A stretch of 64,000 nucleotides of DNA. Origin: Armatimonadota bacterium. Its GTDB lineage: Bacteria; Vulcanimicrobiota; Vulcanimicrobiia; Vulcanimicrobiales; Vulcanimicrobiaceae. Within the stretch, counting starts at the first letter, position 1. Each line of letters opens with the position of its first letter. Location of the stretch: assembly GCA_037441145.1 (NCBI GenBank), contig JBBISR010000007.1, positions 24,988 to 88,987 on the forward strand. Reading direction: 5' to 3'. Shown piece by piece: positions 4,041 to 48,193 of the stretch. Both the position numbers and the translations under genes were made by a program. Below the pieces are notes generated by a model. It was not told the origin of the DNA, did no database searches, and was given only the letters and a program-made list of their open reading frames with translations.

Positions 4041-4690
4041 CGAGCCACCAGCGCGCGTAGCGCCGCGCTTGCGCTCGCGAGCGCTCGGCCGTCGTCGGTG
4101 TCGTGTGGGAGCGACGCGAGCAACGGTGCATGGCTAGCGAGCGCGCGCGTTGCGTCGGTGCGGTATGAATCGCCGACGGGGCCGAAACGCTCGCAAAAAA
4201 CGATACCCGCAACCGCGACCTTCGCTTGCGCGAGAAAGGCGAGCGTAAGCCGAGCGTGGTTGATACAGCCGAGTTTGAGGCCGACGACGACGATCGTGCG
4301 CGCATCGAGTGCGCGCGCGAGATCGGCGTAGGTTTCCGCGGCATTGAGCGGCACGGCGATGCCACCCGCGCCCTCGATGACGAGTGTTTCCGAAAAAGCG
4401 GAAATATGTGCCGCGAGTTTGGCGACGTGCGGGGGCTCGCGACCTTCGGCAAGCGCCGCGTTCCACGGATCGGCCGGGAGCCGATAGCGCGCGATCTCGG
4501 CGAACGCGCAACCGGCGAGGCGCGCGGCATCGTGCGCGTCGCCTGCGACATCGGGTTCGAGCCCCGTCTGCACGGGCTTCACGATCCGTACGAGGCCGTC
4601 GGCCTTGAGCGCGTGCGCCAGTGCCGCCGTGACGCGCGTCTTGCCGACGTCGGTATCCGTACCCGTTACGAAGAATCGGCGTGCGCTCAT
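4037..4690 (-). CDS. bioD: dethiobiotin synthetase
   Basis: N-terminus [18 protein letters not shown] (DTBS P-loop). The ATG at 4690 forms an ATGA overlap with the bioF stop. Confidence 0.9.
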
Positions 4691-42361: not shown

Positions 42362-42483
42362 AACGCCCGAGAGTGAGCGCCTTCACACCGCGCGGATACG
42401 TGCTACTCGGGCGTTTGGTCGCGATAGCATCCCGCGTTCTCATACCACTCATGTATCCGCATCAGAAAAAAGGACGCCCCGTC

Positions 42484-44034
42484 ATGTTTCGTTCGTTCCG
42501 CTCGGCCGTACCCGCGCTCGCGATCGTCGCCTGCGCCGTCAGCGCAACCGCAGCACCCGTGCTTGCCCAATCCGCTCCGCCCACGATCGCGATCACTTCC
42601 GGTGCGAATCAGGCCGTCGCTGCGACCGCGCAAATCAGCGGTGTCGTCGGCGATCCGAATCTCGGCTTCAACCCGGCCCGTGGGGTCGCGAATCCGCCGC
42701 CGATTCCCGTTGGCGGTGCCGCCCCGATTGCGATTTCCGTGAAAAACGCCGCGGGAACCCCGCTCGCAAATGCGCGCGTTTTGTTCTCGTGCGAATTTGC
42801 CGGAGGTCAGTGTTTTCTGTTTCCGCGAAGCAGCACGCATTTCACGGTGACCGATGCGGCGGGTAACGCGACGACCGTCTTCGGCGCAGGCAGTACCGCC
42901 TTCCCGAACGGCGTCGGTGCGCTAATTGCCCCGGTCACGAACAGCACGCTCGCAAGCGGCACGGCGAAAATTACCATCACGCTGCGCGACTTTCCGAACG
43001 CCGTCGCGACGACGACGCTTGCCGTCACGGGAGCCGCGCCGGTAACGAGCGGAACGTCGACGGGGCGATCGGGCGCCACGGTCACGATCGTCGCCGGTGC
43101 GCGGCAAACGCTGAGCGCCACGGGGCAGATCAACCGCATTACGGGCGATACCGCCCTTGGGTTCAACCCCACCCGCGGCGGCGTGCAGCTGGCCCCCCTT
43201 GCGGCCGCGGGTGCCGCCGCGATTACGATTGCGGCGAAAGACGGCGCGGGAAATCCCGTTGCGGGCGCGCGCATCGTGTTCGCATGTACCTTTGCGGGCG
43301 GCCAGTGCTTCCTCGCTCCGGGCGCCACCGATCACTTCACCGTCACCGATGCGATGGGCATGGCGACGAATCTCTTCGGCGCGGGGAGCACCGCGTTTCC
43401 GAACGGCGTCGGCGCGCTGATCACCGCGGGACCGAACGGACAACTCGCGAGCGGCACGGCGACGATTACGGCCACGCTCCGTGACTTCCCGAATGCCGTC
43501 GCGACGACCACGCTTGCGGTGACCGGCGCGGCTGCCGCGGCAACACCGCCCGCAACTGCGCCGACGAAAACGGGTAGCACGACGATCGCGTTCGTCGATG
43601 GTGCGAATCAAACGGGCGTCGGCACGGCACCGCTCAACGTCATGGCGGGCGACCCGGCACTCGGGATCGTGACCTCGCGTCGCACGCTCGCAACGCCGGT
43701 CGTTCGTGCCGCCGGCGCCAAAGCGATGACCGTCCGCGTCCTCGACGCCGCAGGCAATCCCGTCGTCGGCGTACGCGTGTTCTTTACGTGTCAGGTCGCG
43801 CAAGCGCAATGCTTTATGAGCCGTGCCGGGGTGCTCTCGGGCGTGTTCACCGACGCATCGGGAACGGCGACGAATCTCTTCGGCGTCGGCAGTAACGCCT
43901 TCCCAACCGGCGTCGGTGCCCTGATTTTCCCGAACCTGAACCAGACGCTCGCGGCGACGACCGCGACCATCACCGCGCGCGTGGCCAGTGCGCAAACGGC
44001 GGTTGCGACGACGACGATCGGCATCACGCCGTAG
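42484..44034 (+). CDS. secreted protein built of three ~165-aa tandem repeats (Ig-like, one Cys pair each)
   Basis: Signal peptide MFRSFRSAVPALAIVACAVSATAAPVLA. There are three units, each with C.FAGGQCF (CQVAQAQCF in unit 3), FTVTDA.G.ATN.FGAGSTAFPNGVGALI and TLRDFPNAVATTTLAVTG. The nucleotide landmark ttcccgaacggcgtcgg recurs with small substitutions at 42901, 43396 and 43900 (periods 495 and 504 nt). Confidence 0.7.
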   Translation: MFRSFRSAVPALAIVACAVSATAAPVLAQSAPPTIAITSGANQAVAATAQISGVVGDPNLGFNPARGVANPPPIPVGGAAPIAISVKNAAGTPLANARVLFSCEFAGGQCFLFPRSSTHFTVTDAAGNATTVFGAGSTAFPNGVGALIAPVTNSTLASGTAKITITLRDFPNAVATTTLAVTGAAPVTSGTSTGRSGATVTIVAGARQTLSATGQINRITGDTALGFNPTRGGVQLAPLAAAGAAAITIAAKDGAGNPVAGARIVFACTFAGGQCFLAPGATDHFTVTDAMGMATNLFGAGSTAFPNGVGALITAGPNGQLASGTATITATLRDFPNAVATTTLAVTGAAAAATPPATAPTKTGSTTIAFVDGANQTGVGTAPLNVMAGDPALGIVTSRRTLATPVVRAAGAKAMTVRVLDAAGNPVVGVRVFFTCQVAQAQCFMSRAGVLSGVFTDASGTATNLFGVGSNAFPTGVGALIFPNLNQTLAATTATITARVASAQTAVATTTIGITP

Positions 44035-44098
44035 CGGGAATGCCCGCATCGGGTGTCTTAGCTTCGAGCGATGGACTCGGTGCTCGAAACCCTCGCTC

Positions 44099-45418
44099 AT
44101 GTCGGCTGATCTCGTCGCCGTGGCACTCGCCGCGGCGACGGCATCCGGCGCCACCGACGCGGAAGCGTCGCTCGGACTCGCCGATCGCTTCGCCTGCGAA
44201 GCGCGGCTGACGGAAGTAACGAAGCTCGAGCGCTCGCGTGCGCGCGGGCTTTCGTTGCGCGTGTTCGTCGGCAAGAAACGTGCCGCGCTCTCGACGACCG
44301 ACCTGACGCCTGCGGGTATTCGCGAGCTCGCGACGCGCACGGTCGAGGCCGCGCGCTTCGTGGCCGACGACCCGCACGCCGGGCTACCCGAAGTTTTCGG
44401 GATCGCGGAAGGTGACTTCGGGCTCGTCTCGCCGGACGTCGCCGCGCGGCCCGACGAAGCGAAGATCGAAGAAGCGCTAGAGCTCGAACGCTTGGTGCGC
44501 CAGGGCGATCCGCGTATCACGAACTCGAAGGGCGCGCATGTCGGCGACACCCGTGCGACGCATCTGCTCGCGAATACGCGCGGCTTTTCGGGATCGTACG
44601 ATACGACGTATGCGAGCCGTAGCGTAACGCCGCTTGCGAGCGACGGCGCCGACCGCCGGATCGGATCGTATGGAAGCGCAGCGCGGTCCTATGCCGGGCT
44701 CACACCGGTTGCCGATGTCGCCCGCATCGCCGTCGAGCGCGCCGTGCTCTTGTGCGGTGCGCGCAAGCCTGCGACGATGCGCATCCCCGTGATCTTCGAG
44801 CGCGATCTCGCCGCGAGCGTCCTTGGCGATTTATTCGCCGCGCTCGGCGCTGCGAACGTCGCGAGCGGAAACTCGTTTCTGACCGATCGGATCGGCGAGC
44901 GCATCGGGAGCGATCTCGTCACGATCGTCGACGATGGCTTGCTCCCCGGTGGCCTCGGCACCGCGCCGTTCGATGCCGAAGGCGTGCCGACGCGCACGAC
45001 GACCGTCATCGAACGCGGGATGTTTCGGACGTTTCTCGCGGATACGTACAATGGGCGGCGCATCGGCATAGCCTCGACCGGCAACGCTTCGGGCGGCGGC
45101 GTCGGCGCGAACAATTTCTTCTTACAGCCCGGATCGGGGACGCTCGAAGAGCTTATCCGCAAGACGCAGCGTGGCGTGCTCGTAACGGACACGATCGGCT
45201 TTGCAACGGAATACGCGAGCGGCATGTACAGCCGCGGCGCGCGCGGAATGATGATCGAAAACGGCGAGCTGGCCTATCCCGTGGACGAGTTCACGATCGC
45301 CTCGACCTTCGGCGAGATGCTCCTCGGCATCGACGCGATCGCGGACGATCTCATCCACGACGGACGCGTCGTTTCGCCGTCCTTTCGCGTCGCCGAAATG
45401 ACGATCAGCGGAACGTAA
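44099..45418 (+). CDS. pmbA: metalloprotease PmbA/TldE
   Basis: PmbA-like throughout (LSLRVFVGKKRAALSTTDL..., C-terminal FRVAEMTISGT). ATG at 44099. Confidence 0.9.
   Translation: MSADLVAVALAAATASGATDAEASLGLADRFACEARLTEVTKLERSRARGLSLRVFVGKKRAALSTTDLTPAGIRELATRTVEAARFVADDPHAGLPEVFGIAEGDFGLVSPDVAARPDEAKIEEALELERLVRQGDPRITNSKGAHVGDTRATHLLANTRGFSGSYDTTYASRSVTPLASDGADRRIGSYGSAARSYAGLTPVADVARIAVERAVLLCGARKPATMRIPVIFERDLAASVLGDLFAALGAANVASGNSFLTDRIGERIGSDLVTIVDDGLLPGGLGTAPFDAEGVPTRTTTVIERGMFRTFLADTYNGRRIGIASTGNASGGGVGANNFFLQPGSGTLEELIRKTQRGVLVTDTIGFATEYASGMYSRGARGMMIENGELAYPVDEFTIASTFGEMLLGIDAIADDLIHDGRVVSPSFRVAEMTISGT
45337..45418 (+). repeat. left copy of the 82-nt direct repeat (functional 3' end of pmbA)
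   Basis: 75 of 82 nt are identical to 46601-46682. It encodes IADDLIHDGRVVSPSFRVAEMTISGT*. Confidence 0.9.
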
Positions 45419-45427
45419 TCGCGTCTT

Positions 45428-45673
45428 CTATCTTCCCGACTTGGTCAACGCTGCAGCAAGGCGCTGTGCGGACTCAAAGTAGCGAGCGTGCGTTTTGCGC
45501 AAGGTCGTCTCATCATGGGATTCGATTTCTACGATTTCGAGATGCTCTGCTTTGCGGTGCTCCAACTCAAGAGCTAGTCGCGCGGCACCAGACGCATCAA
45601 AATCAGCATCAGCAAAGCGCTCAAGATGACGCACTATTCCGGCCTTGCGATCGTAAACGATCAAAAAAATCAT
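45428..45673 (-). CDS. small acidic hypothetical protein (81 aa), candidate partner or antitoxin of the SAS gene
   Basis: ATG at 45673 with AGGAA 7 nt upstream, 49 nt downstream of the SAS stop. Sequence MIFLIVYDRKAGIVRHLERFADADFDASGAARLALELEHRKAEHLEIVEIESHDETTLRKTHARYFES... I do not recognise a domain. Confidence 0.6.
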   Translation of the reverse strand: MIFLIVYDRKAGIVRHLERFADADFDASGAARLALELEHRKAEHLEIVEIESHDETTLRKTHARYFESAQRLAAALTKSGR

Positions 45674-45722
45674 CGCTCTGTTCCTGTTGCTCTAACATCG
45701 CTGCGCGACCTAGGAGACGCGA

Positions 45723-46520
45723 TTAGGTGCTGTCTTGAGCGCCACGCGCTTCTGGATCGTCTGAGGTCTGCGCCGGTATTTCCTCCGTTTCAATCCCGAT
45801 TATTCGCTCCGCCTCGTCGAGCGCACGGTCAGTCATTGCTAATTTTATGTCGATATTCTCAAGCTCGGCGTCACGCTCGCCGTCGCTTCGTCCATCGAGG
45901 ATCTCGCCGATCACGCTTGCCAGCCCCTGTTTCACCTGCGCAAGCTGTTCAACCGCGGTTTCAATATTGATTATGTAATTCGCAAAATTCCGAAGTTGTT
46001 TTTGGATTTGCTCTGAACCCCCGCCGTACTTTACCTCTGCTCCGAACTCATCGGCGAGACGTTCGCTCATTTGAGCCCAATCGTTTTGAAGTCTCGTCCT
46101 GATTTGAATTTCTACAAAATACTCATCGTCACTTACGATTATGTGGACAGCGCGATATCCTGTTCGGTTCTGCAAGCCTCTCTTATCATCAATTCGCGCG
46201 GTCGGATAAACACGGAGAATGTTCGCTACGAGATCGTCTTGCTCTCGATTTTGCGCAACTACGAGACGTAGCCCACCGATATCTTGCATGCGAGAGAGGC
46301 GAGTTTTCTCACGAACCAATTTCGCGACGATTGAGAATGTCGATTTTTGCGGACGAAGCGACATCGTCGCATCATCGAGTAGTGGAACGATATTCGCGGC
46401 TATCTTATGCACGACAGGCGCGAAGCCAGAGCGAAATTTCGAGAGGAGCGCAAGATCGTCTTCACTCACCGAGCCGTGACGCAATCGCTCCCCTAGCCGA
46501 TCGATTTCACTTCGCGTCAT
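45723..46520 (-). CDS. stand-alone RelA/SpoT-homologue small alarmone synthetase (synthetase domain plus helical acidic tail)
   Basis: The ordered motifs are LRPQKSTFSIVAKL, MQDIGGLRLVV, TGYRAVHIIV and VEIQIRTRLQNDWA. There is no HD hydrolase, TGS or ACT domain. The ATG at 46520 gives MTRSEIDRLGERL. The longer track ORF (to 46772) merely reads antisense through the pmbA-repeat. Confidence 0.85.
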   Translation of the reverse strand: MTRSEIDRLGERLRHGSVSEDDLALLSKFRSGFAPVVHKIAANIVPLLDDATMSLRPQKSTFSIVAKLVREKTRLSRMQDIGGLRLVVAQNREQDDLVANILRVYPTARIDDKRGLQNRTGYRAVHIIVSDDEYFVEIQIRTRLQNDWAQMSERLADEFGAEVKYGGGSEQIQKQLRNFANYIINIETAVEQLAQVKQGLASVIGEILDGRSDGERDAELENIDIKLAMTDRALDEAERIIGIETEEIPAQTSDDPEARGAQDST

Positions 46521-46600
46521 AGGATCGTCTTCACGGGCGCGGCCCACCTGGCCCGTCGTATGACAGCCAAGAATGTCGGGCTCATTTTTTAAGGCGACCT

Positions 46601-46682
46601 GATCGCGGACGGCCTTGTCCACGACGGCCGCGTCGTTTCGCCGTCCTTCCGCGTCGCCGAAATGACGATCAGCGGAACTTAA
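46601..46682 (+). pseudogene. displaced remnant of a pmbA 3' end (right copy of the direct repeat)
   Basis: Encodes IADGLVHDGRVVSPSFRVAEMTISGT* followed by TAA, but has no pmbA body upstream. The junction is at the A/T-rich ctcattttttaagg. Confidence 0.75.
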
Positions 46683-46753
46683 GTTCGCGGTAATATCCAC
46701 GGGGTGGAAGCCGTTTGCGAGGACACCCGGGTCGCGTCCCCGTAGCCGGGGGG

Positions 46754-48193
46754 ATGGCAAGTCCAGCAGCAATCGGTTTCACCCTCATCATGCGTCTCGA
46801 AATGTCGGCGCATCCCGGCGCCTTCGGCACCGTCTCCTCGGCGATCATCGATGCGGGGGGCACGATCTCCGCAGTCGACATGCGCTCCGCCGGCAAGACC
46901 GCCGTGGTGCGCGATTTCTCCGTAACCGTCCCGAGCGATCCGGTCGGGAACGCCGTGCGTCTCGCGGTCGAAGCGCTCGATGGCGTGCGCATCATCTCGA
47001 TGTCCGATTCGACGTTCCTCGCGCACCTCGGCGGCAAGATCACGATCGATCCGAAGATGCCGATCAAGACGCGTCAGGATCTCTCGACCGTGTATACGCC
47101 GGGCGTCGCGCGCGTCTCGATGGCGATCGCAAACGATCCCGCGAAAGCGTTCACGCTGACGATCAAGAAAAATACCGTTGCCGTCGTCACCGATGGAACG
47201 GCCGTACTCGGCCTCGGCGATATCGGCCCGCTCGGCGCGGCGCCCGTGATGGAGGGCAAATGCGCGCTGTTCAAACAGTTTGCGGGCATCGATGCGTTTC
47301 CGATCTGCCTCGACACCAAAGATGTCGATGAGATCGTCGAGACGATCGTACGCATCGCGCCGATCTTCGGCGGTATCAACCTCGAAGATATCTCCGCACC
47401 GCGCTGCTTCGAAGTCGAAAAACGCCTGATCGAGCGCCTCGATATCCCCGTGATGCACGATGACCAACACGGCACCGCAGTCGTGATCCTCGCGGCGCTT
47501 ATCAACGCGGCGAAAGTCGTCGGCAAAGAACTGAGCGCGATGCGCGTCGTCGTCGTCGGCAGCGGCGCCGCCGGCACCGCAACGATCAAGATGCTACTCG
47601 CGGCGGGGATCGGCGACGTCGTTCCCGTGGATCGTGCGGGCGCGATCAACCGTGGCGATCGGTACGAGAATCCGTACTGGACGTGGCTTGCCGAAAACAC
47701 GAATCGCGAGAACCGCCGTGGCAATTTGCACGACGTGCTCAAGGGCGCCGATTGCTTCATCGGCGTCAGCGCGCCCGGCATCTTGACGGTCGAAGATCTT
47801 AAGACGATGGGCAAGGACCCGATCGTGTTCGCGATGGCGAACCCGACGCCCGAAATCATGCCGGACATCGCGGCGCCGTACGTTGCCGTCATCGGCACGG
47901 GGCGTTCGGATTTTCCGAATCAAGTGAATAATCTACTCGCGTTTCCGGGCCTCTTCCGCGGCGCGCTCGATGCACGCTCGACCCGTATTAGCGAGGGGAT
48001 GAAGCTTGCGGCCGCACACGCGATCGCGAACATCGTTGGCGAAGAGCGGTCGGCGGAATATGTGATCCCGAGCGTGTTCGATCAGCGCGTCGTCGACGCC
48101 GTCGCGAAAGCGGTCGCTCAGGCGGCCGTGGAAGAAGGGCTTAGCCGACGTAGCCTCCTAGTCAACGAGGAAGAAAACGCGGCCCTCGTCTAG
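46754..48193 (+). CDS. NAD(P)-dependent malic enzyme with N-terminal ACT-like domain
   Basis: YTPGVARV...VVTDGTAVLGLGDIGPLGAAPVMEGKCALFK...DISAPRCFE...HDDQHGTAVV...GSGAAG is the bacterial malic enzyme pattern. Confidence 0.9.
   Translation: MASPAAIGFTLIMRLEMSAHPGAFGTVSSAIIDAGGTISAVDMRSAGKTAVVRDFSVTVPSDPVGNAVRLAVEALDGVRIISMSDSTFLAHLGGKITIDPKMPIKTRQDLSTVYTPGVARVSMAIANDPAKAFTLTIKKNTVAVVTDGTAVLGLGDIGPLGAAPVMEGKCALFKQFAGIDAFPICLDTKDVDEIVETIVRIAPIFGGINLEDISAPRCFEVEKRLIERLDIPVMHDDQHGTAVVILAALINAAKVVGKELSAMRVVVVGSGAAGTATIKMLLAAGIGDVVPVDRAGAINRGDRYENPYWTWLAENTNRENRRGNLHDVLKGADCFIGVSAPGILTVEDLKTMGKDPIVFAMANPTPEIMPDIAAPYVAVIGTGRSDFPNQVNNLLAFPGLFRGALDARSTRISEGMKLAAAHAIANIVGEERSAEYVIPSVFDQRVVDAVAKAVAQAAVEEGLSRRSLLVNEEENAALV

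What the first reader, a model, noticed from the sequence alone, without database searches (positions are those of the whole stretch)
45428..46520. Candidate new toxSAS-like / abortive-infection module: stand-alone RelA/SpoT synthetase with a helical acidic tail plus a tightly linked 81-aa acidic ORF
Seen: the 265-aa protein (45723-46520, minus strand) has the full ordered set of RelA/SpoT synthetase motifs. These are LRPQKSTFSIVAKL (basic/Ser/Lys nucleotide-binding), MQDIGGLRLVV (D-x-G-x-R), TGYRAVHIIV and VEIQIRTRLQNDWA. It has no HD hydrolase, TGS or ACT domains. Its last ~95 aa form an acidic, heptad-like helical extension (EQLAQVKQGLASVIGEILDGRSDGERDAELENIDIKLAMTDRALDEAERIIGIETEE). A separate 81-aa acidic ORF with its own RBS follows 49 nt downstream. 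Established: small alarmone synthetases linked to small neighbour genes include the toxSAS toxin-antitoxin families (FaRel, PhRel, CapRel). These act by (pp)pApp synthesis or pyrophosphorylation of tRNA 3' CCA ends, and some provide antiphage defence, with CapRel using a C-terminal autoinhibitory sensor domain. Inference: this is a toxic or defensive SAS. Either the helical tail, the downstream ORF, or both may act as neutraliser or sensor. I do not recognise this exact architecture, nor its carriage on an integrase-less islet, as a described subfamily.
Basis: partly seen in the sequence, partly recalled or inferred. Interest (0 to 1): 0.85.

Follow-up and report, generated by a model that had tools for sequence, protein, structure and literature searches.

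The report
Split CapRel/PhRel-type toxin–antitoxin pair
The two genes are real and form a toxin–antitoxin pair of an already described kind (the PhRel/CapRel "toxic small alarmone synthetase" family known from phage defence), here on a tiny 1.26-kb insert in an uncultured soil-type bacterium; it is a new member, not a new architecture.

Summary
A 265-aa stand-alone RelA/SpoT synthetase sits at 45723-46520(-). It has a basic core and an acidic two-helix tail. An 81-aa ORF follows 49 nt downstream at 45428-45673(-).

The claim of a new architecture does not hold. The small ORF is a clear homologue of gp30 (ATphRel), the antitoxin of mycobacteriophage Phrann (hhalign 98%, E 2.6e-13). The best phage match of the synthetase is Phrann gp29 (PhRel). 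The two window ORFs match the N- and C-terminal parts of one PADLOC model, PDC-S33. I show that this model is the fused CapRel family (CapRelSJ46 hits it at 7e-87).

In 78 of 80 related genome loci the same small gene lies directly downstream of the synthetase: 77 as a separate ORF, 1 fused. The window therefore carries a bicistronic PhRel/CapRel-type toxSAS toxin–antitoxin module. By homology, the toxin most likely pyrophosphorylates tRNA 3'-CCA ends, and the antitoxin blocks its ATP site through an HxxY motif, the counterpart of CapRel's YXXY.

The module is a 1264-bp low-GC islet in an Eremiobacterota genome. It is bounded by an 88-nt direct repeat that duplicates the 3' end of pmbA. Verdict: new member of a known kind.

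The parts
45723..46520 (-). toxSAS toxin gene (265 aa): RelA/SpoT synthetase core (aa 1-169, pI 9.0) plus an acidic two-helix tail (aa 170-246) and a disordered end
   Evidence: Pfam PF04607 E 1.8e-14. PADLOC PDC-S33 positions 9-252, E 1e-26. hhalign of the family against the CapRelSJ46 N-terminus, 98.7%, E 3.8e-16. Best phage hit is Phrann gp29/PhRel, E 3e-10. AF2 pLDDT 87.5. The top three Foldseek PDB hits are CapRel, E 2e-9 to 3e-8.
45428..45673 (-). Antitoxin gene (81 aa), ATphRel/ATcapRel-type pseudo-zinc-finger-like domain with the motif T61-H62-A-R64-Y65-F66
   Evidence: hhalign of the family against Phrann gp30, 98%, E 2.6e-13. Match to CapRelSJ46 residues 302-363, E 6e-4, pairing H62 with Y352 and Y65 with Y355. 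PADLOC PDC-S33 positions 265-339, E 0.003. Homologue directly downstream of the SAS in 78/80 loci. AF2 pLDDT 85.4, beta-beta-alpha-beta plus two C-terminal helices broken at residue 62.
45674..45722 (-). 49-nt spacer between toxin stop and antitoxin start, containing the antitoxin's ribosome-binding site. It is longer than in relatives, where the genes mostly overlap or lie 0-13 nt apart.
46521..46594 (-). 74-nt region upstream of the toxin gene inside the islet; presumed promoter and operator region (inferred only)
   Evidence: Sequence. No sigma-70 consensus match, so this role is unverified.
45331..45418 (+). Direct repeat, left copy: the in-gene 3' end of pmbA (ends with its stop codon), 9 nt from the antitoxin stop
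46595..46682 (+). Direct repeat, right copy: orphan pmbA 3'-end fragment (79/88 identical; still encodes ...HDGRVVSPSFRVAEMTISGT*), 32 nt before the malic-enzyme gene
45419..46682 (.). The 1264-bp low-GC islet as a whole (toxin, antitoxin and one repeat copy). No integrase-sized ORF lies inside it.
   Evidence: Homology to the nearest relative contig L092 stops at 45411 and resumes at 46703.

Best explanation
[quoted passage not shown] It is the split counterpart of the fused antiphage protein CapRel.

**Shown here**
- The 265-aa protein is a stand-alone RelA/SpoT synthetase with all family-invariant residues intact.
- The 81-aa protein is a homologue of the validated antitoxin ATphRel and of CapRel's C-terminal antitoxin domain.
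- The gene pair is almost invariably linked across many phyla.

**Inferred from homology to characterised relatives**
1. In uninfected cells the antitoxin binds the toxin. It docks on the helical tail, the counterpart of CapRel's 'anchor' helices.
2. The antitoxin inserts its T-H-x-R-Y-F hinge into the ATP (pyrophosphate-donor) site. H62 and Y65 align with the YXXY residues Y352 and Y355 of CapRelSJ46.
3. When the antitoxin is displaced, titrated or lost, the basic synthetase core transfers pyrophosphate from ATP to the 3'-CCA end of tRNAs. Possible triggers are a phage protein, host shut-off or loss of the islet.
4. Aminoacylation is blocked and translation stops. The outcome is abortive infection, or addiction that stabilises the islet.

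The module arrived by horizontal transfer as a 1.26-kb islet at the 3' end of pmbA.
For: **Synthetase domain and residues**
- Pfam finds RelA_SpoT only.
- All 30-sequence invariant columns are intact in the window protein.
- By the hhalign alignment, Y122 corresponds to the CapRelSJ46 G-loop Y155 and R85 to R116.

**Relation to fused CapRel**
- The toxin and the small ORF hit the N- and C-terminal parts of one PADLOC profile, PDC-S33.
- CapRelSJ46 matches that profile end to end at 7e-87, and Phrann gp29 at 1e-23.

**Relation to PhRel/ATphRel**
- The small-ORF family matches Phrann gp30 with hhalign 98%, E 2.6e-13.
- It matches the CapRelSJ46 C-terminus at E 6e-4, with HxxY aligned to YXXY.
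- The best phage tblastn hit of the toxin is Phrann gp29.

**Structure**
- The top three PDB matches of the toxin model are CapRelSJ46 (E 2e-9 to 3e-8, 240-259 columns).
- The top two matches of the antitoxin model are also CapRelSJ46, but not significantly (E 1.6).
- The antitoxin model has the beta-beta-alpha-beta core plus two C-terminal helices hinged at H62, as described for the pZFD (PMC9712102).

**Gene linkage**
- The partner lies directly downstream in 78/80 loci from more than 10 phyla, mostly overlapping the toxin gene.
- The antitoxin family has 1475 50%-identity clusters, and 133 of the best 148 are 120 aa or shorter.

**Literature**
- PhRel and CapRel share a homologous antitoxin and are validated toxin–antitoxin systems (PMC7229694).
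- Both inhibit translation specifically, and toxSAS of this type pyrophosphorylate tRNA CCA (bioRxiv 10.1101/2021.04.30.441581).
- Neutralisation through the donor site is predicted for split CapRel and PhRel (PMC11782079).

**Charge pattern**
- The basic core (pI 9.0; family median 9.1) fits tRNA binding.
Against: - No experiment exists for this protein or for any close relative. The nearest homologue is only 43-48% identical, and identity to PhRel is 26%.
- Kurata et al. state that no sequence signature separates tRNA-modifying from nucleotide-modifying toxSAS, so the substrate is inferred from clade membership only.
- In a crude NJ tree the window toxin is a long, deep branch. It is not nested in the main split group.
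- The match of the antitoxin family to the CapRelSJ46 C-terminus has only 28% hhalign probability. The structural match is not significant on its own.
- The window antitoxin departs from three columns that are at least 90% conserved (A28S, L50I, A52S).
- The 49-nt spacer is atypical.
- No promoter-like site was found.
- The neighbours are housekeeping genes, not a defence island.
Confidence: 0.82

Rival explanations
1. The gene pair is the same, but the toxin acts on nucleotides: it synthesises (pp)pApp and depletes ATP like FaRel/Tas1, or overproduces (p)ppGpp. It would not modify tRNA.
For: The RelA/SpoT fold and all donor-site residues are shared by both kinds of enzyme. Kurata et al. (10.1101/2021.04.30.441581) report no clear sequence signature that predicts the substrate. 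The window toxin is a deep, divergent branch.
Against: Its detectable relatives among characterised toxSAS are PhRel and CapRel, both of which specifically inhibit translation. The antitoxin is of the pZFD/ATphRel type. PMC11782079 associates that type with donor-site neutralisation of tRNA-targeting toxSAS, whereas (pp)pApp makers are neutralised by Tis1-like domains or hydrolases. The family has a basic core.
Confidence: 0.12
2. The module is biochemically a toxSAS toxin–antitoxin pair, but in this genome it has no antiphage role. It would be the last surviving, self-stabilising (addictive) cargo of a decayed integrative element.
For: The islet is only 1264 bp and has att-like direct repeats but no integrase. 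The flanks are housekeeping genes. The nearest relative contig carries unrelated cargo at the same pmbA–malic-enzyme junction. In six related loci the toxin ORF is interrupted while the antitoxin is intact, which is the pattern expected for decaying toxin–antitoxin pairs.
Against: Both window genes are intact, with all invariant residues. Relatives of both architectures defend against phages: Phrann gp29/gp30 according to PMC7229694, and CapRelSJ46 in PMC9712102. Addiction and defence are not mutually exclusive.
Confidence: 0.3
3. The pair is a fused CapRel gene broken by a frameshift, that is, a pseudogene. The 'tail' would then be out-of-frame read-through.
For: The two ORFs lie in different frames and map to consecutive parts of the fused PDC-S33 profile. 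The spacer is unusually long.
Against: 77 of 78 related loci are split in the same way, each antitoxin with its own start codon at profile position 1. 133 of the best 148 antitoxin relatives are stand-alone small proteins. The tail folds confidently as two helices (pLDDT 80-88) and aligns with relatives' tails. Phrann gp29/gp30 has the same layout.
Confidence: 0.03
4. The synthetase is a housekeeping RelQ/RelP-like (p)ppGpp synthetase, and the small ORF is an unrelated neighbour.
For: By plain sequence, the best PDB hits are RelQ-type SAS (E 2e-4). RelQ/RelP structures score only slightly below CapRel in Foldseek.
Against: The NCBIfam RelQ equivalog scores 25.9 bits against a cut-off of 320. 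The partner gene is conserved and homologous to a validated antitoxin. The module is a low-GC horizontally acquired islet. The taxonomic distribution is patchy and spans many phyla.
Confidence: 0.03

Closest known systems
Mycobacteriophage Phrann gp29/gp30 (PhRel : ATphRel)
   Same: The layout is the same: a stand-alone toxSAS with a long helical C-terminal tail (292 aa), followed a few nucleotides later by a roughly 70-80-aa antitoxin. The antitoxins are clearly homologous, sharing FLIxYxR...RLxLE...EVxxL...L+RTHxRYF (hhalign E 2.6e-13). gp29 is the toxin's best phage hit.
   Different: Toxin identity is only 26%. The host is an Eremiobacterota chromosome islet, not an actinobacteriophage. 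The spacer is 49 nt against 7 nt.
Unfused CapRel : ATcapRel (Mycobacterium sp. AB308; Jimmy et al. 2020)
   Same: It is a bicistronic toxSAS pair whose antitoxin is stated to be homologous to ATphRel (PMC7229694). The CapRel subfamily is the broadly distributed one.
   Different: I could not obtain the sequence, so no direct comparison was made. Zhang et al. describe unfused CapRel as mainly actinobacterial. The window's relatives are mostly Acidobacteriota, Burkholderiales, Nitrospirota and Planctomycetota.
Fused CapRelSJ46 (PADLOC candidate PDC-S33; PDB 7ZTB, 9ERV)
   Same: Both have the toxSYNTH core, helical 'anchor' region and C-terminal antitoxin/sensor domain in the same order. The window's two ORFs cover profile positions 9-252 and 265-339. 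CapRelSJ46 gives the best structural match. HxxY aligns with the YXXY neutralisation motif.
   Different: CapRelSJ46 is one polypeptide; the window has two genes in different frames. The first motif residue is His, not Tyr. Neutralisation would act in trans (dissociation possible) rather than through a conformational switch in cis.
FaRel2 : ATfaRel2 (Coprobacillus sp. D7; PDB 8PU1-8PU4)
   Same: It is a bipartite tRNA-pyrophosphorylating toxSAS neutralised in trans by a small pZFD-like antitoxin with a YXXY motif at the ATP-donor site (PMC11782079). This is the best experimental model for how a split system is neutralised.
   Different: It belongs to a different SAS subfamily, and the sequence and fold matches are weak (E 0.11; ranks 37 and 49). 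Its antitoxin is circularly permuted relative to CapRel's domain.
RelQ / RelP housekeeping small alarmone synthetases
   Same: They share the catalytic fold and the single-domain architecture.
   Different: They have no antitoxin partner and are non-toxic. They are vertically inherited, make (p)ppGpp and lack the helical acidic tail.
CIME-type decayed integrative elements (att-flanked, integrase-less; PMC5704250)
   Same: The islet sits at the 3' end of a conserved gene between direct repeats that duplicate that 3' end, and it has no integration genes.
   Different: It is far smaller (1.26 kb, two genes). No parent ICE/IME or cognate integrase was identified. The repeats are only 90% identical.

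Membership tests
PhRel/CapRel clade of toxSAS toxin–antitoxin modules | Stand-alone RelA/SpoT synthetase (toxSYNTH) domain with intact catalytic, ATP-coordinating and G-loop residues, and no HD, TGS or ACT domains | tested here: met
   Pfam finds only PF04607. All family-invariant residues are present. Y122 and R85 align with CapRelSJ46 Y155 and R116.
PhRel/CapRel clade of toxSAS toxin–antitoxin modules | Adjacent cognate antitoxin homologous to ATphRel / ATcapRel / the CapRel C-terminal domain | tested here: met
   hhalign against Phrann gp30, 98%, E 2.6e-13. PDC-S33 C-terminal positions 265-339. Conserved synteny in 78/80 loci.
PhRel/CapRel clade of toxSAS toxin–antitoxin modules | Neutralisation motif (YXXY in CapRel/ATfaRel2) at the hinge between the two C-terminal helices of the antitoxin | tested here: met
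   The variant is H62-A-R-Y65. H62 is invariant and Y65 at least 90% conserved in 60 family members. H62 aligns to Y352 and Y65 to Y355. Phrann gp30 has the same HSRY form. The AF2 helix break falls at residue 62.
PhRel/CapRel clade of toxSAS toxin–antitoxin modules | Phylogenetic placement inside the CapRel+PhRel clade of the RSH tree (Jimmy et al. subfamily HMMs) | tested here: inconclusive
   The subfamily HMMs were not available. A crude NJ tree puts the window on a deep branch among split relatives, PhRel and CapRelSJ46. Profile scores to PDC-S33 are similar for the window toxin (92 bits) and PhRel (82 bits).
PhRel/CapRel clade of toxSAS toxin–antitoxin modules | Toxin arrests growth and the cognate antitoxin neutralises it by direct binding | not testable with these tools
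   Requires expression and rescue assays. The only indirect support is that interrupted toxin ORFs with intact antitoxins occur in six related loci.
PhRel/CapRel clade of toxSAS toxin–antitoxin modules | Pyrophosphorylation of the tRNA 3'-CCA end, leading to translation arrest | not testable with these tools
   Inferred from characterised relatives (10.1101/2021.04.30.441581; PMC9712102).
Fused CapRel (PADLOC PDC-S33, CapRelSJ46 type) | Toxin and antitoxin domains in a single polypeptide | tested here: not met
   There are two ORFs in different frames separated by 49 nt. 77/78 relatives are also split.
Housekeeping SAS (RelQ/RelP) | Scores above the family threshold for RelQ/YjbM-type GTP diphosphokinase; no antitoxin partner | tested here: not met
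   NF053588 scores 25.9 bits against a cut-off of 320. The antitoxin partner is conserved.
CIME-like decayed integrative element | attL/attR direct repeats at the 3' end of a target gene; no integrase or transfer genes | tested here: met
   88-nt repeat, 79/88 identical, equal to the pmbA 3' end. Only the two toxin–antitoxin ORFs lie inside.
CIME-like decayed integrative element | Derivation from, or mobilisation by, an integrase-encoding parent element | not tested
   No parent element or cognate integrase was searched for or found.

The most novel reading that the evidence does not exclude
The split PhRel/CapRel cassette may itself be a minimal unit of mobility. It would be a roughly 1.1-1.3-kb toxin–antitoxin-only islet that carries a replacement copy of the 3' end of a host gene. 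It would enter and leave chromosomes through the flanking 26-110-nt direct repeats without an integrase of its own, using either a trans-acting recombinase or RecA-mediated Campbell-type integration of an excised circle.

Support: the window (pmbA), two Nitrospirota loci (sigma-54 regulator) and an actinobacterial locus (LytR-family gene) show this layout. The Nitrospirota loci carry different cargo sizes at the same site.

Against specificity: a control found similar direct repeats about as often elsewhere in the flanks.
Probability: 0.12. Interest if true: 0.55.

Novelty: new member of a known kind. Interest (0 to 1): 0.3.

Why it matters
The main value is correct filing. The pair can be annotated as a PhRel/CapRel-type toxSAS toxin and its ATphRel-type antitoxin. 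The PADLOC 'candidate' PDC-S33 can be equated with fused CapRel.

Two modest extensions follow:

1. The split form, described in the literature as mainly actinobacterial, is the rule among the 78 relatives recovered here. These come from Acidobacteriota, Burkholderiales, Nitrospirota, Planctomycetota, Omnitrophota and others, and the form now also appears in Eremiobacterota. The antitoxin family comprises about 1,500 50%-identity clusters, nearly all stand-alone.
2. These antitoxins use an invariant His in place of the first Tyr of the YXXY neutralisation motif.

Split systems could show how a trans-acting pZFD antitoxin senses phage. The tiny repeat-bounded islet is a clean natural example of toxin–antitoxin cargo at a variable chromosomal junction.

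Tried and rejected
**Searches that found nothing**
- Exact-sequence look-ups of the window toxin, antitoxin and PmbA returned no retrievable contig. The organism is therefore inferred only from the names attached to PmbA homologues: Candidatus Eremiobacteraeota, Baltobacteraceae, Velthaea and Elarobacter.
- The small ORF alone, and a 60-member profile of it, gave no Pfam family and no PDB sequence match. The link to known antitoxins appeared only through the PADLOC profile and a direct profile comparison with Phrann gp30.
- A literature search for 'PDC-S33' found nothing.
- The sigma-70 promoter scan found nothing in the islet.

**Weak or spurious results**
- Foldseek of the antitoxin model ranks CapRel first and second, but at E 1.6. 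I treat this as concordant, not as evidence on its own.
- Two giant repetitive proteins (3555 and 4564 aa, 31 matched stretches each) among the antitoxin-profile hits are repeat artefacts.

**Ideas tested and dropped or weakened**
- I suspected that the 43-nt repeat in L079 was a tRNA 3' half. ARAGORN and Rfam found no tRNA or RNA family in any repeat-bearing locus.
- I tested whether direct repeats specifically bracket the toxin–antitoxin pair in relatives. Five of 70 loci have bracketing repeats of at least 40 nt. However, four loci have equally long repeats lying within a single flank, for an equal search space. The enrichment is therefore not demonstrated.
- The broken fused-gene reading and the housekeeping-SAS reading were considered and rejected (see rival explanations).
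- I did not attempt a complex prediction.
Full report
**1. The observation**

The ORF list and the sequence confirm a 265-aa ORF at 45723-46520(-). An 81-aa ORF lies at 45428-45673(-). It starts 49 nt after the first ORF's stop codon, lies in a different frame and has a GGAA-type ribosome-binding site.

Pfam detects only the RelA_SpoT synthetase domain (PF04607, E 1.8e-14, aa 58-150) and no hydrolase or regulatory domains. NCBIfam models for long RSH enzymes and for RelQ/YjbM score far below their cut-offs.

AlphaFold2 with a 30-sequence alignment gives a confident model (pLDDT 87.5). It shows an alpha/beta synthetase core, two long helices (170-208 and 213-246) and a disordered last ~20 residues. 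The core is basic (pI 9.0) and the tail acidic (pI 4.1). The small ORF is close to neutral (pI 6.5), so 'acidic' overstates it.

The longer 349-aa TTG-start ORF listed by the ORF finder (45723-46772) is an artefact. Relatives all begin at the position of the ATG at 46520.

**2. What the pair is**

The key clue came from PADLOC. The synthetase matches positions 9-252, and the small ORF positions 265-339, of a single 349-position model, the 'phage defence candidate' PDC-S33. I fetched the CapRel gene of Salmonella phage SJ46. It matches PDC-S33 end to end at 7e-87, so PDC-S33 is the fused CapRel family.

Against the phage collection, the toxin's best hit is gp29 of mycobacteriophage Phrann, the founding PhRel toxin (E 3e-10, 26% identity over aa 1-200). 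Phrann has the same layout: a 292-aa synthetase with a helical tail, then a 71-aa gp30 after 7 nt.

A 60-member profile of the small ORF family matches gp30 (ATphRel) with 98% probability and E 2.6e-13. It matches residues 302-363 of CapRelSJ46 more weakly (E 6e-4, probability 28%). The synthetase family profile matches the CapRelSJ46 N-terminal domain with 98.7% probability and E 3.8e-16.

The structural results agree:
- The three best PDB matches of the toxin model are CapRelSJ46 entries (E 2e-9 to 3e-8, 240-259 aligned columns). The alignment therefore extends beyond the core into the helical tail. RelQ and RelP follow closely.
- The two best matches of the antitoxin model are also CapRelSJ46, but at a non-significant E of 1.6.
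- The antitoxin model (pLDDT 85.4) is beta-beta-alpha-beta followed by two helices that break at residue 62. This is the topology published for CapRel's pseudo-zinc-finger domain, with its neutralisation motif at the hinge of the two C-terminal helices (PMC9712102).

In the profile alignment, the family's most conserved element is T61-H62-x-R64-Y65-F66; H62 and F66 are invariant, and T61, R64 and Y65 are at least 90% conserved. It lines up with A351-Y352-P-N-Y355-F356 of CapRelSJ46. H62 and Y65 are thus the counterparts of the YXXY residues. Phrann gp30 has the same HSRY form.

**3. Conservation of the pairing**

The toxin has 620 detectable homologues, none closer than 43-48% identity. Most are 220-260 aa.

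A scan of one genome per species returned 80 loci. They come from Acidobacteriota, Burkholderiales and other Proteobacteria, Nitrospirota, Planctomycetota, Gemmatimonadota, Omnitrophota, Chloroflexota, Actinomycetota and others.

- In 78 of the 80 loci a homologue of the 81-aa ORF lies immediately downstream on the same strand (HMM E 1e-15 to 1e-31). The other two loci are cut by contig ends.
- Of the 78, 77 have separate ORFs, most overlapping the toxin stop by 4 or 17 nt or lying 0-13 nt away. One, from Anaeromyxobacteraceae, is fused.
- Five weak homologues found independently with the small ORF as query also sit right after a RelA_SpoT gene where context could be read.
- An exhaustive profile search finds 1475 50%-identity clusters of the antitoxin family. 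Of the best 148, 133 are 120 aa or shorter and only two are 250 aa or longer.

The split arrangement is therefore genuine, not a broken fused gene.

The helical tail is a variable family feature: 47-128 aa, median pI 5.1. The basic core is also typical, with a median pI of 9.1.

In six related loci the toxin reading frame is interrupted while the antitoxin is intact. This is what toxin–antitoxin decay would predict, although errors in MAG assemblies could also produce it.

**4. How it most likely works**

What is shown is homology, intact catalytic residues and conserved linkage. The mechanism is inferred from characterised relatives.

- Jimmy et al. validated PhRel:ATphRel and CapRel:ATcapRel as toxin–antitoxin pairs and noted that their antitoxins are homologous (PMC7229694).
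- Zhang et al. showed that the C-terminal domain of fused CapRel autoinhibits the ATP site through YXXY and senses phage capsid protein (PMC9712102).
- Dominguez-Molina et al. showed donor-site neutralisation in trans for FaRel2:ATfaRel2 and predicted the same for split CapRel and PhRel (PMC11782079).

I therefore propose the following. The 81-aa protein binds the toxin's helical tail and plugs the ATP-donor site with its HxRY hinge. When it is displaced or lost, the toxin pyrophosphorylates tRNA and stops translation.

The substrate is the least secure step, because no sequence signature distinguishes tRNA-targeting from nucleotide-targeting toxSAS.

**5. Genomic setting**

The pair occupies a 1264-bp low-GC segment (0.47-0.54 against 0.62-0.70). 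The segment lies between pmbA/tldE (43988-45418) and a malic-enzyme gene (46715-48193).

It is bounded by an 88-nt direct repeat, 45331-45418 and 46595-46682 (79/88 identical). The repeat is the 3' end of pmbA. The orphan right copy still encodes the last 29 residues of the protein.

PmbA homologues carry Eremiobacterota names. The closest available relative contig (PmbA 80% identical) is syntenic on both sides. Between pmbA and the malic-enzyme gene it has an unrelated 119-aa ORF instead of the toxin–antitoxin pair. The junction is therefore a variable spot.

Both repeat copies are equally distant from the relative's sequence (63/88), so I cannot say which copy is native.

The layout fits either of two origins:
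- the remnant of an element that integrated site-specifically into the gene's 3' end (CIME-like; PMC5704250);
- homology-assisted acquisition from a related genome.

No integrase lies in the islet.

**6. Comparison and novelty**

The module meets the testable defining features of the PhRel/CapRel toxSAS toxin–antitoxin group. It fails the single-polypeptide criterion of fused CapRel and the criteria for housekeeping RelQ/RelP. It is a new, divergent member of a known kind.

The modest new points are:
- its occurrence in Eremiobacterota;
- the dominance of the split form among environmental Gram-negative phyla, where the literature describes unfused CapRel as mainly actinobacterial;
- the HxxY variant of the motif;
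- the minimal repeat-bounded islet.

**7. Side observations on other loci**

Several relatives also have the pair between direct repeats.

- In two Nitrospirota loci the repeat is the 3' end of a sigma-54-dependent regulator. One islet carries an extra HepT/MNT pair.
- In Marinactinospora the repeat is the 3' end of a LytR-family gene.
- In a Planctomycetia locus the repeat is a strongly folding 76-nt palindromic element (z = -7.3).

A control showed that comparable repeats occur about as often elsewhere in the flanks. I therefore do not claim a mechanism specific to the toxin–antitoxin pair.

Noticed in passing
window 45331-45418 and 46595-46682: An 88-nt direct repeat (79/88 identical) duplicates the 3' end of pmbA and bounds the 1264-bp toxin–antitoxin islet. 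The nearest relative contig (L092) has an unrelated 119-aa ORF at the same pmbA–malic-enzyme junction, so this is a variable insertion spot. Which copy is native could not be decided.
   Followed up: partly
window 45413-45430 and 45711-45728: An 18-nt inverted repeat (16/18 complementary) overlaps the toxin stop codon and the antitoxin stop codon. In the mRNA it would enclose the whole antitoxin cistron in a long-range stem. The stem appears in both the MFE and the centroid fold, but the region as a whole folds no better than shuffled sequence (z = 0.57). This may be chance or a translational/stability element linked to the unusually long 49-nt spacer.
   Followed up: partly
window 42373-44034 (+): A 553-aa ORF with a signal-like N-terminus and three internal ~170-aa repeats lies between tldD and pmbA. 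It has a sub-threshold Pfam Big_1 hit (30.5 bits against a cut-off of 34.9). In the relative L092 tldD and pmbA overlap directly, so this is a second insertion relative to that genome.
   Followed up: no
L084 2915-2983 / 4069-4137; L011 588-613 / 2675-2700: In two Nitrospirota genomes the homologous toxin–antitoxin pair sits directly after a sigma-54-dependent regulator gene. An orphan copy of that gene's 3' end, with a different C-terminal ending, lies beyond the islet. The L011 islet also contains a HepT/MNT toxin–antitoxin pair. The site is the same but the cargo differs.
   Followed up: partly
L070 1317-1392 / 2607-2682; L035 3-169 / 1290-1363 / 2323-2490; L042 2783-2961 / 4122-4303: Other relatives have the pair between non-coding direct repeats. 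One is a 76-nt strongly folding palindromic element in Planctomycetia (DNA fold z = -7.3). Another is a three-copy repeat in Terriglobia that also brackets an Uma2-family endonuclease gene. These might be attC-like or REP-like cassette boundaries. A control found similar repeats about as often elsewhere in the flanks.
   Followed up: partly
L012, L024, L033, L052, L076, L084: In these six related loci the toxin reading frame is interrupted or truncated while the downstream antitoxin ORF is intact. This is the asymmetry expected for decaying toxin–antitoxin modules, but assembly errors in low-coverage MAGs are not excluded.
   Followed up: no
L078 2992-4101: This is the only fused toxin–antitoxin among the 78 relatives (370 aa, Anaeromyxobacteraceae). 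In a crude NJ tree it groups with Phrann PhRel and actinobacterial split systems rather than with CapRelSJ46. That hints that fusion arose more than once.
   Followed up: no
window 45723-46772 (-): The toxin frame stays open upstream of the true ATG, through the orphan pmbA repeat, giving a spurious 349-aa TTG-start ORF. This may explain why the exact 265-aa product is not in the protein collection although the antitoxin and PmbA are.
   Followed up: no
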